Shown here: positions 42,542-44,943 of the stretch, piece after piece | Layout: every line of letters begins with the position of its first letter | Position numbering within the stretch: position 1 is the stretch's first letter | Origin: Escherichia coli | GTDB taxonomy: Bacteria; Pseudomonadota; Gammaproteobacteria; Enterobacterales; Enterobacteriaceae | Assembly (NCBI RefSeq): GCF_003790525.1 | Contig: NZ_CP033635.1 | DNA length: 64,000 bases | Reading direction: 5' to 3' (one strand) | Position numbers and translations under genes: made by a program | The notes under the pieces: generated by a model | What the model was told of the DNA's origin: nothing | Databases searched by the model: none | What the model saw: only the letters and a program-made list of their open reading frames with translations

Positions 42542-44521
42542 TCAGGTGCCGATTATGCCGCCGTCGGCTTTTACGATAACGACAGTTGAGGAGCGCGGAC
42601 GACCAGCCTTATCGCCGTCAGGCCAGCTTGATACTGCCGTCGGATGCTGCGGATCGCTAAGCCCTTCGCTTGGCTCGCCAGGGTGCTGGATGTTAATAAA
42701 CAGCGTCCGGTTATCCGGAGTGAACGCGATGCCGGTGATTTCGCAGCCGCGCGGGCCGGTCAGGAAGCGGCGGAACTCATTGGTACCGGGAATCGTCGCC
42801 ACCATCTGGTTGTTGCCCATGCCTTTGTAATCTTTAATATTTATGGTTGATGACGACACGTCGGTCTGGATCCATAGCACGCCGCGGTGATCAAAGCTCA
42901 GGCCATCGGCGCTGCCGAATTCCGCACCCTTCATGCTGCCTTTGGTTTCCAGTTTGTCTGTATCGGTGCGACCGCCCATCACAAGAATATCCCAGGCAAA
43001 CTGCAGCGCGGTCGGGTCACCGTTATGCTCCAACCAGTGAATGATGTGGCCGTAAACGTTTTTGGCGCGCGGGTTGGCCGCATCCACTGGCGCTTTTCCT
43101 TCCTTACCGCGATCGCTGTTGTTGGTGAGCGTGCAGTAAACGCTGCCGGCGTGATATGGATCGACCGCAATCCACTCCGGGCGGTCCATTTTAGTGGCCC
43201 CCACGGCGTCTGCCGCCAGACGGGTTTTAATCAACAGGTCGCCCTGGTTTTCAAACCCTTTACTGGCGTCGAGCCCATTTTGTCCGAACACCAGCGGTAG
43301 CCACTCGCCTTTGCCGTCGTCGTTAAATTTCGCCACGTACAGAGTGCCTTTTTCCAGCAGGTGCATGTTGGCTTTGCGATCCTGCGGGTTGAATTTTCCT
43401 TCCGAGACAAATTTATATATGTATTCGAATTTCTGGTCATCGCCCATATAGACCACAACGCGGTTATCCGGGGCAATTGTCACCGCTGCGCCTTCGTGTT
43501 TGATGCGACCAAGCGCGGTGTGCTTGCGCGGCACTGAATGCGGATCGTATGGATCGATTTCCACCACCCAGCCGAAGCGGTTCGGCTCGTTCGGCGTGGC
43601 GTCGACGCTGAACCTTTTATCCACTTCGTTCCAGCGGTAAGAGTCGTCGCTCCCGCTGATACCGTAACGTTTTTCCAGCGGGTTCATCTCTGCTTTTTTT
43701 ACGAAAATATCGGACCAGTTCTCTTCACACGTCAGATAGGTGCCCCACGGCGTAAATCCGTTGGCACAGTTCTGCATGGTGCCGAGAATGATTTCGCCTT
43801 TCGGATCGTCAACTGTTTGCATCAGTGGGTTATGCAGCGCCGGACCGGTGATTTTCATCGGCGTGTTAACGGTGATGCGGCGTGCGAACGATGACGGGCG
43901 CACCACTTCCCAGCCCAGGGGCACTTTTTTTACTTCAATGACCGACACGCCCATCGCGTTCTGGCCTTTAAGAGCTTTATCGGCGCTCCAGTTGGCATCG
44001 CCATCTTTAAACAGTAGACCGTTATCGATGTATTCATGGTTTATGGCAAGCAGGCCGTGATCGGAGCTGTTCCCGCCCTGCGGCAGGCTAAACCACGCCA
44101 TGCCGTCGTGGTGCATCCCGGCCTGCGCCGCCTGTTCTTCCGTGGTGTTGCTACCGTCGGTTTTAAAAACCGGCAGATTTCCGGCAATCCCGGTGGCGTC
44201 GCCCCATTTGTAGAAGGGCTTCGCGATGTATCCTTCCGGCACGATAACGGTATCTTCCGTGGAAACCGGCAGGCTGGTGAAACCGAGCGTCGTCGCTTTG
44301 CCGAGGTTACCGCTTGCTTTGGAGACCACTTTCGCCAGCGCGTTTTCCTGTTTCAGCAGAAATGGGAACGCTGCCGCGGCACCGGCGACCGTGCCGGCCT
44401 GTAACAGACGGCGGCGTGACAAATAGACTTCCGCCACCTGCGAAAACGCGCGGTTATCGCTCGGGTTACTGATTTCTTCACTATGCTCACGTTTGAATAA
44501 AGTTTTTAACGGTCTGCCCAT
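42542..44521 (-). CDS. phoX: PhoX-family alkaline phosphatase with Tat signal
   Basis: 659 aa, twin-arginine motif SRRRLLQAG near N-terminus, overall beta-propeller phosphatase (DUF839-like) sequence. Confidence 0.75.
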   Translation of the reverse strand: MGRPLKTLFKREHSEEISNPSDNRAFSQVAEVYLSRRRLLQAGTVAGAAAAFPFLLKQENALAKVVSKASGNLGKATTLGFTSLPVSTEDTVIVPEGYIAKPFYKWGDATGIAGNLPVFKTDGSNTTEEQAAQAGMHHDGMAWFSLPQGGNSSDHGLLAINHEYIDNGLLFKDGDANWSADKALKGQNAMGVSVIEVKKVPLGWEVVRPSSFARRITVNTPMKITGPALHNPLMQTVDDPKGEIILGTMQNCANGFTPWGTYLTCEENWSDIFVKKAEMNPLEKRYGISGSDDSYRWNEVDKRFSVDATPNEPNRFGWVVEIDPYDPHSVPRKHTALGRIKHEGAAVTIAPDNRVVVYMGDDQKFEYIYKFVSEGKFNPQDRKANMHLLEKGTLYVAKFNDDGKGEWLPLVFGQNGLDASKGFENQGDLLIKTRLAADAVGATKMDRPEWIAVDPYHAGSVYCTLTNNSDRGKEGKAPVDAANPRAKNVYGHIIHWLEHNGDPTALQFAWDILVMGGRTDTDKLETKGSMKGAEFGSADGLSFDHRGVLWIQTDVSSSTINIKDYKGMGNNQMVATIPGTNEFRRFLTGPRGCEITGIAFTPDNRTLFINIQHPGEPSEGLSDPQHPTAVSSWPDGDKAGRPRSSTVVIVKADGGIIGT

Positions 44522-44943
44522 TGCGGTTTCCTTTCAAAAAATCGATTTCAAGGGGAATCATTTTTATGCACGTGAGTCTACGGAAAGATTGTTACGGAAA
44601 TATAACAATTGTCATAAAAAACCGGCGATAAAATCATCTATGGTCGGGACGCGGTTTCAGGTATGATGTGAGGCTAGAATTCTGAACGCTCTCTTTTGTT
44701 GAGCATATATGGACGTCCCAGATGAGGCAAGTACTGGTTCGATGCGGTTTGCGACCATATATCCGGCGTCGTTAGTAGGTTCAATGACCTGCGCCATGAT
44801 GTTATCCGGGCCCTATTTCCTAATCACTACACCGGTATTTGATTACCCAGGTCAACTTCAGACTGTTACAGGGGCGGTAGCCGTTATCTCATCAGTGAAT
44901 GTAAACTCAGTTAAAAATATTTTCTATAACTTACTGTTTTTCT

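What the first reader, a model, noticed from the sequence alone, without database searches (positions are those of the whole stretch)
42542..44700. Apparently intact Tat-exported PhoX-family alkaline phosphatase as island cargo
This 659-aa ORF has a twin-arginine signal and is the largest intact non-transposase gene in the island besides iha. PhoX-type phosphatases are calcium-dependent phosphate scavengers and are not part of the K-12 gene set as far as I know. I could not find a convincing Pho box upstream, so regulation is unclear. Retention of an intact gene amid heavy decay suggests selection.
Basis: partly seen in the sequence, partly recalled or inferred. Interest (0 to 1): 0.55.

Follow-up and report, generated by a model that had tools for sequence, protein, structure and literature searches.

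The report
Intact PhoX phosphatase gene, Cronobacter-derived
This is an ordinary, already-annotated gene for a PhoX-type phosphate-scavenging enzyme that a small minority of E. coli strains picked up from a Cronobacter-like relative; it looks fully functional and kept by selection, but it is not a new kind of thing.

Summary
Window 42542..44521 (minus strand) is an intact 659-aa ORF with a twin-arginine signal peptide and a full-length PhoX domain. It matches Pfam PF05787 end to end (E 1e-165) and solved Pseudomonas fluorescens PhoX (E 2e-167). An AlphaFold model superposes on 3ZWU at TM 0.94. It keeps 50 of 51 family-conserved residues, including the Cys and Glu I recall as cofactor ligands.

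RefSeq already names this exact protein (WP_000533456.1) "PhoX family phosphatase". About 100 of 5,426 complete E. coli genomes carry it. Only the gene plus ~100 bp on each side resembles Cronobacter DNA (92% nt, 94-96% aa), so it is a self-contained promoter-gene-terminator module.

First, there is a Pho-box-like element at -87..-70. It is weak against the consensus but conserved in eight enterobacterial genera, with phoA-like spacing to a -10 hexamer. The window's allele has a derived T-to-C change in it. Second, intactness alone does not show selection. Selection is supported by 10 synonymous versus 4 non-synonymous differences among E. coli copies (P = 1.5e-4) and by lower divergence in the coding sequence than in its flanks. 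Other E. coli lineages hold a frameshifted Klebsiella-type phoX or a 112-bp relic. Overall: known family, known annotation, low novelty.

The parts
42542..44521 (-). phoX coding sequence, 659 codons plus TGA stop; protein identical to RefSeq WP_000533456.1
   Evidence: ORF; Pfam PF05787 2-515/515, E 1.2e-165; PDB 3zwu E 2.2e-167; RefSeq annotation
44333..44521 (-). Tat signal peptide, residues 1-63: long conserved n-region, S-R-R-R-L-L-Q (R36 R37 = window 44411-44416), h-region 42-56, predicted A-L-A cleavage site after residue 63
   Evidence: R36/R37 are invariant in the 48-sequence alignment and at least 95% conserved across 104 representatives; AF2 pLDDT below 50 over residues 1-68. The cleavage site is inferred from the AxA rule and was not predicted by a dedicated tool.
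42545..44332 (-). Mature PhoX beta-propeller catalytic domain, including Cys252 (window 43766-43768, = P. fluorescens Cys179) and Glu343 (= Glu273)
   Evidence: AF2 model pLDDT mostly above 90 from residue 70; TM 0.94 and rmsd 1.9 A to 3ZWU; 50 of 51 conserved columns retained
44591..44608 (-). Pho-box-like element TTGTTATATTTCCGTAAC at -87..-70, with two 7-mers phased 11 bp apart. The C at window 44596 (coding strand) is a derived T-to-C change in the second TGT core.
   Evidence: Conserved as yTGTTATAAAtnTGTAAy in 8 genera; ancestral CTGTAAC in Cronobacter and in E. coli allele group B; geometry identical to K-12 phoA and phoB boxes; not significant as a single sequence
44575..44580 (-). Candidate -10 hexamer TAGACT, 10 nt downstream of the box; there is no -35, as in PhoB-dependent promoters
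   Evidence: TAnACT at the same offset in the other genera; phoA: box, 10 nt, TATAGT; phoB: box, 10 nt, CATAAT. Inferred; no transcription start data.
44529..44532 (-). Shine-Dalgarno AGGA, 7 nt before the ATG
   Evidence: read directly from the sequence
42490..42517 (-). Intrinsic terminator: stem CAGGC / loop GCGGTTA / stem GCCTG, then TGTTTTTAT; it begins 25 nt after the stop codon
   Evidence: it lies inside the Cronobacter-homologous block
42446..44621 (-). Extent of the Cronobacter-like DNA (91.9% nt identity to a C. universalis contig): the mobile unit is promoter plus phoX plus terminator only
   Evidence: local blastn
42005..45303 (.). 3.3-kb block shared by both E. coli phoX allele groups: phoX plus a decayed ABC-permease remnant downstream and transposase remnants upstream
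   Evidence: 98.97% identity to FORC_082; annotations
41359..42411 (-). Neighbouring decayed ABC transporter (permease and ATPase fragments). It is not part of the phoX unit and is listed only as context.
   Evidence: Pseudogene annotations; fragments match generic ABC ATPase models; the closest relative's locus has no phoX

Best explanation
The ORF encodes a functional PhoX-family alkaline phosphomonoesterase. Shown: the pre-protein carries a twin-arginine signal peptide, and the mature domain has the PhoX beta-propeller fold with essentially all family-conserved residues. Inferred: it folds in the cytoplasm, is exported by the E. coli Tat system to the periplasm, and there uses the family's iron-calcium centre to release phosphate from organic phosphate monoesters, which Pst or Pit then take up. 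The gene is a self-contained monocistronic module (promoter, ribosome-binding site, ORF, terminator). It was copied from a Cronobacter-like enterobacterium into a mosaic, IS-ridden island that sits after ynjA in this strain. Transcription is most likely driven by PhoB under phosphate starvation through a degenerate but phylogenetically conserved Pho box at -87..-70. The window's allele, the majority allele in E. coli, has a T-to-C change in that box that may weaken induction. The coding sequence has been under purifying selection since the E. coli alleles diverged.
For: Family and fold: Pfam PhoX full length, E 1.2e-165; phmmer to P. fluorescens PhoX 3ZWU E 2.2e-167 over residues 70-658; AF2 model mean pLDDT 89.3 with TM 0.94 and rmsd 1.9 A to 3ZWU, next-best folds at E ~1e-5. 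Active site: 50 of 51 columns that are at least 95% conserved in 104 representatives at 36-57% identity are retained, including C252/E343 (= Pf C179/E273). The one exception, A538, is shared with Cronobacter and Buttiauxella orthologs. Export: RR motif and TAT_signal hits, and the RR is near-invariant across the family. Module structure and origin: homology to Cronobacter stops 96 bp past the stop codon and 100 bp before the start codon; neighbours differ in every genus; terminator; 94-96% aa identity to five Cronobacter species. Regulation: motif conserved in 8 genera at -70..-87 with a -10-like hexamer 10-11 nt downstream, the same geometry as the verified K-12 phoA and phoB boxes. phoX is PhoB-regulated and periplasmic in V. 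cholerae (PMC4714964), and phoX genes are generally induced through the Pho regulon (PMC9306846). Selection: 10 of 10 sampled copies are intact; 14 variable sites split 10 synonymous to 4 non-synonymous, binomial P = 1.5e-4, omega about 0.12; the CDS diverges 0.61% against about 1.6% in flanking DNA of the same block; omega is 0.065 against Cronobacter.
Against: No enzymatic, localisation or expression data exist for the E. coli protein, and I found no paper on it. The Pho-box match is weak against the consensus (13/18; 13% of shuffles do as well). The conserved motif is also near-palindromic (GTTAyAAATTTrTAAC), so a different dimeric regulator cannot be excluded. The window's allele has lost the T of the second TGT core, which seven other genera keep, so it may be poorly induced. 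The identity of the cofactor ligands (Cys179, Glu273) comes from my memory of Yong et al. 2014, which I could not read; only their conservation and numbering were checked. The allele divergence used for the selection test may partly predate entry into E. coli. Only about 1.8% of complete genomes keep the gene, and other lineages show decay.
Confidence: 0.85

Rival explanations
1. Hitch-hiking cargo: the gene is intact only because the island arrived recently. It is not expressed usefully in E. coli, which already has PhoA, and it is on its way to decay. The promoter-box mutation in the majority allele is the first step.
For: Copies within E. coli are 99.3-100% identical. Everything around phoX is pseudogenised. 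There is a derived T-to-C change in the conserved promoter motif in about 65 of about 100 carriers. A Klebsiella-type phoX is frameshifted in 1 of 3 sampled E. coli. About 375 records hold only a 112-bp relic. Carriage is low, at 1.8%.
Against: Substitutions among the E. coli copies are strongly biased toward synonymous (10:4, P = 1.5e-4), and the CDS has diverged about 2.6 times less than its flanks in the same block. No disrupted copy was found among the 10 sampled. The block was duplicated to a second site in NRZ14408 with phoX still intact.
Confidence: 0.12
2. A functional PhoX, but not PhoB-controlled: the conserved near-palindromic motif is the operator of some other dimeric regulator, for example a metal- or stress-responsive one.
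For: The motif GTTAyAAATTTrTAAC is 14/16 self-complementary in the Klebsiella and Atlantibacter versions. Position 5 of both repeats deviates from the TGTCA core of E. coli Pho boxes. In four of eight genera, phoX has metal-uptake genes nearby: aztABCD, TonB siderophore receptors and an Fe-type ABC remnant.
Against: The TGT cores are phased by exactly 11 bp, and the box-to-(-10) distance equals that of K-12 phoA and phoB. The last position varies C/T, as in the Pho-box consensus Y, which breaks the palindrome in Enterobacter and Atlantibacter. There is no Fur (12/19) or Zur (12/23) match, and the arm spacing differs by 3 bp from a Zur box. phoX belongs to the Pho regulon wherever it has been tested.
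Confidence: 0.2
3. Not a phosphatase at all: a beta-propeller protein of another family mislabelled by homology.
For: None found.
Against: About 47-50% identity over 590 residues to the crystallised, enzymatically characterised PhoX. The Pfam model is covered end to end. All near-invariant acidic, Cys and His positions are retained. Other propeller families are about 70 orders of magnitude worse.
Confidence: 0.01

Closest known systems
Pseudomonas fluorescens Pf0-1 PhoX (PDB 3ZWU/4A9V/4ALF/4AMF; Yong et al. 2014, Science 345:1170)
   Same: Same Pfam family over the full length, about 50% identity, same beta-propeller fold (TM 0.94). It has the same conserved Cys (179 -> 252) and Glu (273 -> 343) and the other conserved acidic, His and Arg positions, and an N-terminal twin-arginine signal.
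   Different: The E. coli and Cronobacter proteins have a longer conserved n-region (34 residues before the RR) and a 10-residue insertion near the C-terminus (PQHPTAVSSWPDGDKAG against PEHLPNG). Metal content and kinetics are untested here.
Cronobacter spp. chromosomal PhoX (C. sakazakii, malonaticus, universalis, turicensis, dublinensis)
   Same: 94-96% aa and 92% nt identity; same length (659 aa); same promoter element, ribosome-binding site and terminator region.
   Different: In Cronobacter the gene sits in a stable chromosomal context (iol genes / MFS transporter upstream, MetNIQ-like transporter downstream). In E. coli only the gene plus about 100 bp on each side was transplanted into an IS-rich island. 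The window's allele also has the T-to-C promoter change.
Vibrio cholerae PhoX (VCA0033) and Campylobacter jejuni PhoX
   Same: Periplasmic alkaline phosphatases of enteric pathogens that are induced by phosphate limitation. The V. cholerae gene is PhoB-regulated (PMC4714964). The C. jejuni enzyme is Tat-translocated (PMC3197622, title and abstract).
   Different: These are native core genes whose roles have been demonstrated. The E. coli gene is accessory, horizontally acquired and unstudied.
E. coli PhoA (b0383), the classical alkaline phosphatase
   Same: Same predicted cellular job (periplasmic release of phosphate from monoesters) and a promoter with the same Pho-box geometry.
   Different: Unrelated fold and family. 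By established knowledge, PhoA is Sec-exported, zinc/magnesium-dependent and uses a serine nucleophile. PhoX is Tat-exported and uses an iron-calcium centre.
Klebsiella-type PhoX (WP_004175379.1) in the tRNA-Asn island integrase-phoX-aztABCD
   Same: Same family, 76% aa identity, same promoter motif; it is also present in a minority of E. coli (about 33 genomes).
   Different: Independent acquisition, different island and different neighbours (a zinc ABC transporter). It is frameshifted in one of three sampled E. coli.

Membership tests
PhoX alkaline phosphatase family (Pfam PF05787 / COG3211) | Full-length match to the family profile | tested here: met
   PF05787 model positions 2-515 of 515, E 1.2e-165, 553 bits
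PhoX alkaline phosphatase family (Pfam PF05787 / COG3211) | Beta-propeller fold of the solved PhoX | tested here: met
   AF2 model pLDDT 89.3; Foldseek against 3ZWU gives E 1.7e-75, TM 0.94 (target-normalised) and rmsd 1.9 A
PhoX alkaline phosphatase family (Pfam PF05787 / COG3211) | Conservation of the metal-cofactor and active-site residues (Cys179 and Glu273 of P. fluorescens PhoX, and the other invariant acidic, His and Arg residues) | tested here: met
   C252 and E343 align to Pf C179 and E273. 50 of 51 columns that are at least 95% conserved across 104 representatives are retained; the exception, A538, is shared with orthologs. Which residues actually ligate the metals is from memory of Yong et al. 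2014, which I could not read.
PhoX alkaline phosphatase family (Pfam PF05787 / COG3211) | Twin-arginine (Tat) signal peptide | tested here: met
   SRRRLLQ followed by a hydrophobic region; TIGR01409 17.8 bits against a cutoff of 16.7; RR near-invariant across the family. Actual Tat dependence cannot be tested here.
PhoX alkaline phosphatase family (Pfam PF05787 / COG3211) | Phosphomonoesterase activity dependent on an iron-calcium cofactor | not testable with these tools
   Needs purified protein, metal analysis and pNPP or other substrate assays
E. coli Pho regulon (PhoB-activated promoters) | Pho box (CTGTCAT-AWAW-CTGTCAY) replacing the -35, located 10 nt upstream of the -10 hexamer | tested here: inconclusive
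   Geometry is met and the element is conserved in 8 genera. The sequence match is only 13/18 (10/14 core), which is not above chance for one sequence. The motif is also near-palindromic, and the window's allele carries a core T-to-C change.
E. coli Pho regulon (PhoB-activated promoters) | Induction by phosphate starvation in a phoB-dependent manner | not testable with these tools
   Needs a reporter fusion, qRT-PCR or EMSA. Shown for V. cholerae phoX only (PMC4714964).

The most novel reading that the evidence does not exclude
PhoX may be kept in these E. coli lineages, and repeatedly packaged with metal-uptake genes, because it is a zinc-independent (iron-calcium) substitute for zinc-dependent PhoA. 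That would let the cell keep scavenging organic phosphate where the host withholds zinc. Under this reading the conserved near-palindromic promoter element, and the T-to-C change in the majority E. coli allele, would reflect regulation that is not purely PhoB-driven. The supporting hints are circumstantial. In four of eight genera, genes close to phoX are metal importers: aztABCD zinc uptake in Klebsiella and E. coli, TonB siderophore receptors in Enterobacter and Atlantibacter, and an Fe-type ABC remnant plus iha in this island.
Probability: 0.12. Interest if true: 0.5.

Novelty: already known. Interest (0 to 1): 0.2.

Why it matters
It matters little for discovery. The family, fold and chemistry are solved, and RefSeq already names this exact protein. 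The modest value is practical. It shows that about 2% of E. coli, mostly poultry, swine and human extra-intestinal isolates in this sample, carry a second, metal-orthogonal periplasmic alkaline phosphatase alongside PhoA. This could confound phoA-based reporter or phenotype assays in such strains. It could also contribute to phosphate acquisition in zinc-poor niches. The work also supplies a testable natural promoter polymorphism (CTGTAAC versus CCGTAAC) in a conserved enterobacterial phoX control element.

Tried and rejected
1. Conserved operon. I asked whether phoX forms an ancestral operon with the decayed ABC transporter downstream. The Cronobacter homology stops 96 bp past the stop codon. 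The ATPase fragments match PhnT2, PotA and ferric models about equally, and the permease fragments match no NCBIfam model. A whole-database search returned mostly fragments with generic names. The nearest relative on a long contig is itself decaying and has no phoX nearby. Rejected: there is no evidence of a functional unit.

2. Conserved gene neighbourhood. Neighbours differ in Cronobacter, Franconibacter, Klebsiella, Enterobacter, Buttiauxella, Atlantibacter and Shimwellia, so there is no conserved operon.

3. Pho-box scan of the single sequence. The best site scores 13/18, and 13% of shuffles reach that. This was uninformative until the orthologs were compared.

4. Fur, Zur, CRP and PhoP consensus scans of the upstream 200 nt gave nothing convincing.

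5. Reading Yong et al. 2014 for the ligand list. The paper is not held, and other papers did not list the residues in text. I used family-wide invariant columns instead.

6. Literature on E. coli PhoX or on this island. Three searches found nothing relevant.

7. The first MAFFT run timed out and was rerun with faster settings. The first local BLAST returned nothing because I assumed the wrong file layout and was fixed.
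Full report
**1. Observation**

The ORF listing shows a single uninterrupted ORF at window 42542..44521 on the minus strand: 659 aa, ATG start, TGA stop. The finding's upper coordinate (44700) includes 179 nt of upstream DNA, and the finding did not give the strand.

The N-terminus reads MGRPLKTLFKREHSEEISNPSDNRAFSQVAEVYL-SRRRLLQ-AGTVAGAAAAFPFLL-KQENALA. That is a long polar n-region, a twin-arginine motif, a moderately hydrophobic h-region (mean Kyte-Doolittle 1.67) and an AxA site after residue 63. TIGR01409 TAT_signal scores 17.8 bits against a curated cutoff of 16.7. Pfam TAT_signal is weaker (E 0.016).

The ATG at 44521 is the real start. The whole n-region is conserved in Cronobacter, Franconibacter, Klebsiella, Enterobacter, Buttiauxella, Atlantibacter and Shimwellia orthologs, and AGGA lies 7 nt upstream. 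The statement that this is the largest intact non-transposase ORF in the island after iha is also correct.

**2. What it is**

- Pfam PF05787 (PhoX) is matched over model positions 2-515 of 515 at E 1.2e-165.
- Against all PDB sequences, the only hits are the Pseudomonas fluorescens PhoX entries 3ZWU/4A9V/4A9X/4ALF/4AMF, at E 2e-167 over residues 70-658.
- An AlphaFold2 model built on a 48-sequence alignment has mean pLDDT 89.3. Only the signal peptide (residues 1-68) is disordered.
- The model superposes on 3ZWU with Foldseek E 1.7e-75, target-normalised TM 0.94 and rmsd 1.9 A. The next matches are unrelated beta-propellers at E ~1e-5.

**3. Active-site test**

I could not read Yong et al. 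2014, so I tested family-wide conservation instead. An exhaustive HMMER search of 1.84 billion cluster representatives found 1,044 relatives at E <= 1e-30. I aligned 104 full-length representatives (36-57% identity) with the P. fluorescens crystal chain. Fifty-one columns are at least 95% conserved, and the window protein has the consensus residue at 50 of them.

These 50 include:
- the twin arginines R36/R37;
- C252 and E343, which align with chain positions 179 and 273 of the crystal structure (the Cys and Glu I recall as cofactor ligands, with matching numbering);
- D139, E163, E266, E267, E321, D323, K333, R339, H342, D362, R434, D446, D539, Q612 and H613.

The one deviation, A538 (Pro in 96% of sequences), is shared with the Cronobacter and Buttiauxella orthologs, so it is a clade trait and not a lesion.

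**4. Origin and anatomy**

The exact protein is RefSeq WP_000533456.1, "PhoX family phosphatase". The protein collection names it MULTISPECIES [Enterobacteriaceae], and it is recorded on about 1,000 contigs. Its 90% cluster otherwise contains PhoX from five Cronobacter species, each 94-96% identical. The next relatives are Franconibacter (81%) and Enterobacter, Klebsiella, Buttiauxella and Atlantibacter (76-78%).

At the DNA level, similarity to a Cronobacter contig covers only window 42446..44621 (91.9%). That is the gene plus 96 bp downstream and 100 bp upstream. Those margins contain an intrinsic terminator (CAGGC-GCGGTTA-GCCTG then TGTTTTTAT, window about 42517-42490) and the promoter region.

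Gene neighbours differ in every genus examined, so phoX is a stand-alone monocistronic module. In this window it lies in an integrase-bounded, IS-riddled island inserted after ynjA. The island also carries iha. Immediately downstream of phoX are frameshifted ABC permease and ATPase remnants. I found no evidence that these ever formed a functional unit with phoX.

**5. Regulation**

A consensus scan of the upstream 400 nt finds its best Pho-box match at -87..-70: TTGTTATATTTCCGTAAC, 13/18 overall and 10/14 core positions. On its own this is not significant, because 13% of shuffles do as well.

Comparison with orthologs changes the picture. The upstream regions of all eight genera are otherwise unalignable, yet all contain yTGTTATAAAtnTGTAAy at -70 to -87. 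The two TGT cores are 11 bp apart, and a TAnACT hexamer follows 10-11 nt downstream. I checked the geometry against real K-12 sequence:
- phoA box CTGTCATAAAGTTGTCAC at -80, then 10 nt, then TATAGT;
- phoB box TTTTCATAAATCTGTCAT at -81, then 10 nt, then CATAAT.

The phoX element has the same layout. phoX is PhoB-regulated and periplasmic in V. cholerae (PMC4714964), and phoX genes are generally induced through the Pho regulon (PMC9306846).

I therefore consider PhoB control the most likely mode (roughly 0.6-0.65), with two caveats:
- The motif is also 14/16 self-complementary, so another dimeric regulator is possible. Fur and Zur boxes are absent.
- The window's allele reads CCGTAAC where Cronobacter, six other genera and a second E. 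coli allele group read (C/T/G)TGTAA(C/T).

In complete genomes, about 65 carry the window's promoter allele exactly, about 30 carry the ancestral one and about 10 are one-SNP intermediates.

**6. Population and selection**

A CDS-only blastn against 5,426 complete E. coli genomes finds three classes:
- 94 records at >=99% identity (this gene);
- about 33 at ~74% identity;
- about 375 holding only a 112-bp fragment.

The ~74% class is a second, Klebsiella-type phoX in a tRNA-Asn island (integrase-phoX-aztABCD). It is frameshifted in one of three sampled strains. The 112-bp fragment corresponds to CDS nt 863-974 at 91-93% identity and is annotated as an "alkaline phosphatase" pseudogene. It occurs, for example, in REL606, E. 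coli C and many plasmids. E. coli has therefore acquired phoX repeatedly and often lost it, so intactness alone is weak evidence for selection.

Better evidence comes from the substitution pattern:
- All ten sampled Cronobacter-type copies are intact and represent three protein alleles.
- They differ at 14 coding sites, 10 synonymous and 4 non-synonymous. About 77% non-synonymous would be expected under neutrality (binomial P = 1.5e-4; omega about 0.12).
- Within the 3.3-kb block shared by both allele groups (window 42005-45303), the CDS differs by 0.61%. The flanking non-coding and pseudogene DNA differs by about 1.6%, and synonymous sites by about 2%.
- Against Cronobacter, omega is 0.065 with dS 0.32.

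Purifying selection has thus acted since the alleles split.

**7. Comparison with known systems and verdict**

This works like, and is a member of, the PhoX family. Four sequence- and structure-based defining features were tested and met. Enzymatic activity and metal content cannot be tested here, and Pho-regulon membership is inconclusive.

"Calcium-dependent" should read iron-calcium dependent (Yong et al. 2014, as cited). The nearest characterised relatives are P. fluorescens PhoX (structure) and the V. cholerae and C. jejuni PhoX enzymes (physiology in enteric pathogens).

Three literature searches found no study of the E. coli gene or of phoX regulation in Enterobacteriaceae. The gene is nonetheless correctly annotated in public databases. 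The finding is real and correctly interpreted, but ordinary: a known family, a known annotation and an unremarkable mechanism. The only fresh details are the conserved enterobacterial phoX promoter element, its polymorphism in E. coli, and the evidence of repeated gain and decay.

Noticed in passing
CDS nt 863-974 = window about 43548-43659; example locus L014 3000-3140 (REL606): About 375 E. coli records (REL606, E. coli C, NEBExpress and many 80-230 kb plasmids) contain only a 112-bp phoX fragment at 91-93% identity, annotated by PGAP as an 'alkaline phosphatase' pseudogene. In REL606 it lies between an autotransporter gene and RelE/IS30 remnants. It appears to be a relic of an older phoX acquisition that now travels with mobile DNA.
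   Followed up: partly
L013 3344-10898 (E. coli 2017.18.04CC); L006/L007 (K. pneumoniae): A second, Klebsiella-type phoX (74% nt, 76% aa) occurs in about 33 complete E. coli genomes, in a tRNA-Asn island with the order integrase-phoX-aztA-aztB-aztC-aztD (zinc uptake). It is frameshifted in one of three sampled strains. K. pneumoniae has the same arrangement.
   Followed up: partly
L001 17349-24349 (NRZ14408, beside the rrnD 5S rRNA genes): Strain NRZ14408 carries a second copy of the phoX block (ATPase and permease remnants, phoX, transposase remnants) next to an IS1414 copy beside an rRNA operon, in addition to the island copy. phoX is intact in both, with one synonymous difference from the window.
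   Followed up: partly
L008 690-2873 and L010 693-2891: In Enterobacter hormaechei and Atlantibacter, phoX lies 110-130 bp downstream of a TonB-dependent siderophore receptor gene (TIGR01783, E about 1e-118 to 1e-123). Together with aztABCD in Klebsiella and the Fe-type ABC remnant in E. coli, metal-uptake genes lie next to phoX in four of eight genera. This could be coincidence or a link to the enzyme's iron requirement.
   Followed up: partly
L018 (E. coli F1022) phoX CDS nt 1035, 1489, 1629: The F1022 allele has the group-A promoter and protein but carries group-B/Cronobacter bases at three synonymous sites. This suggests recombination between the two E. coli phoX allele groups.
   Followed up: no
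window 41359-42411 (minus strand); L023 4842-8241: The ABC transporter next to phoX is decayed: frameshifted permease and ATPase, with a binding-protein fragment further on. Its closest relative on a long contig (76% aa) is also split into fragments, so this transporter family seems prone to decay in more than one host.
   Followed up: partly
window about 62949-63992 (minus strand); L002 45025-46284: Near the far end of the window, in the IS-rich region, there is an intact gene annotated amiC (N-acetylmuramoyl-L-alanine amidase, noted by PGAP as Tat-dependent) in strain SFE8. It is therefore a second Tat-exported protein in this stretch. I did not check whether it is the native amiC or an extra copy.
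   Followed up: no
window 29386-30603 (plus strand): A tyrosine recombinase/integrase gene directly follows ynjA and marks the island boundary. The first cargo after it is a run of decayed LPS/cell-surface-modification-type genes (phosphoethanolamine transferase, glycosyltransferase family 4, polysaccharide deacetylase).
   Followed up: no
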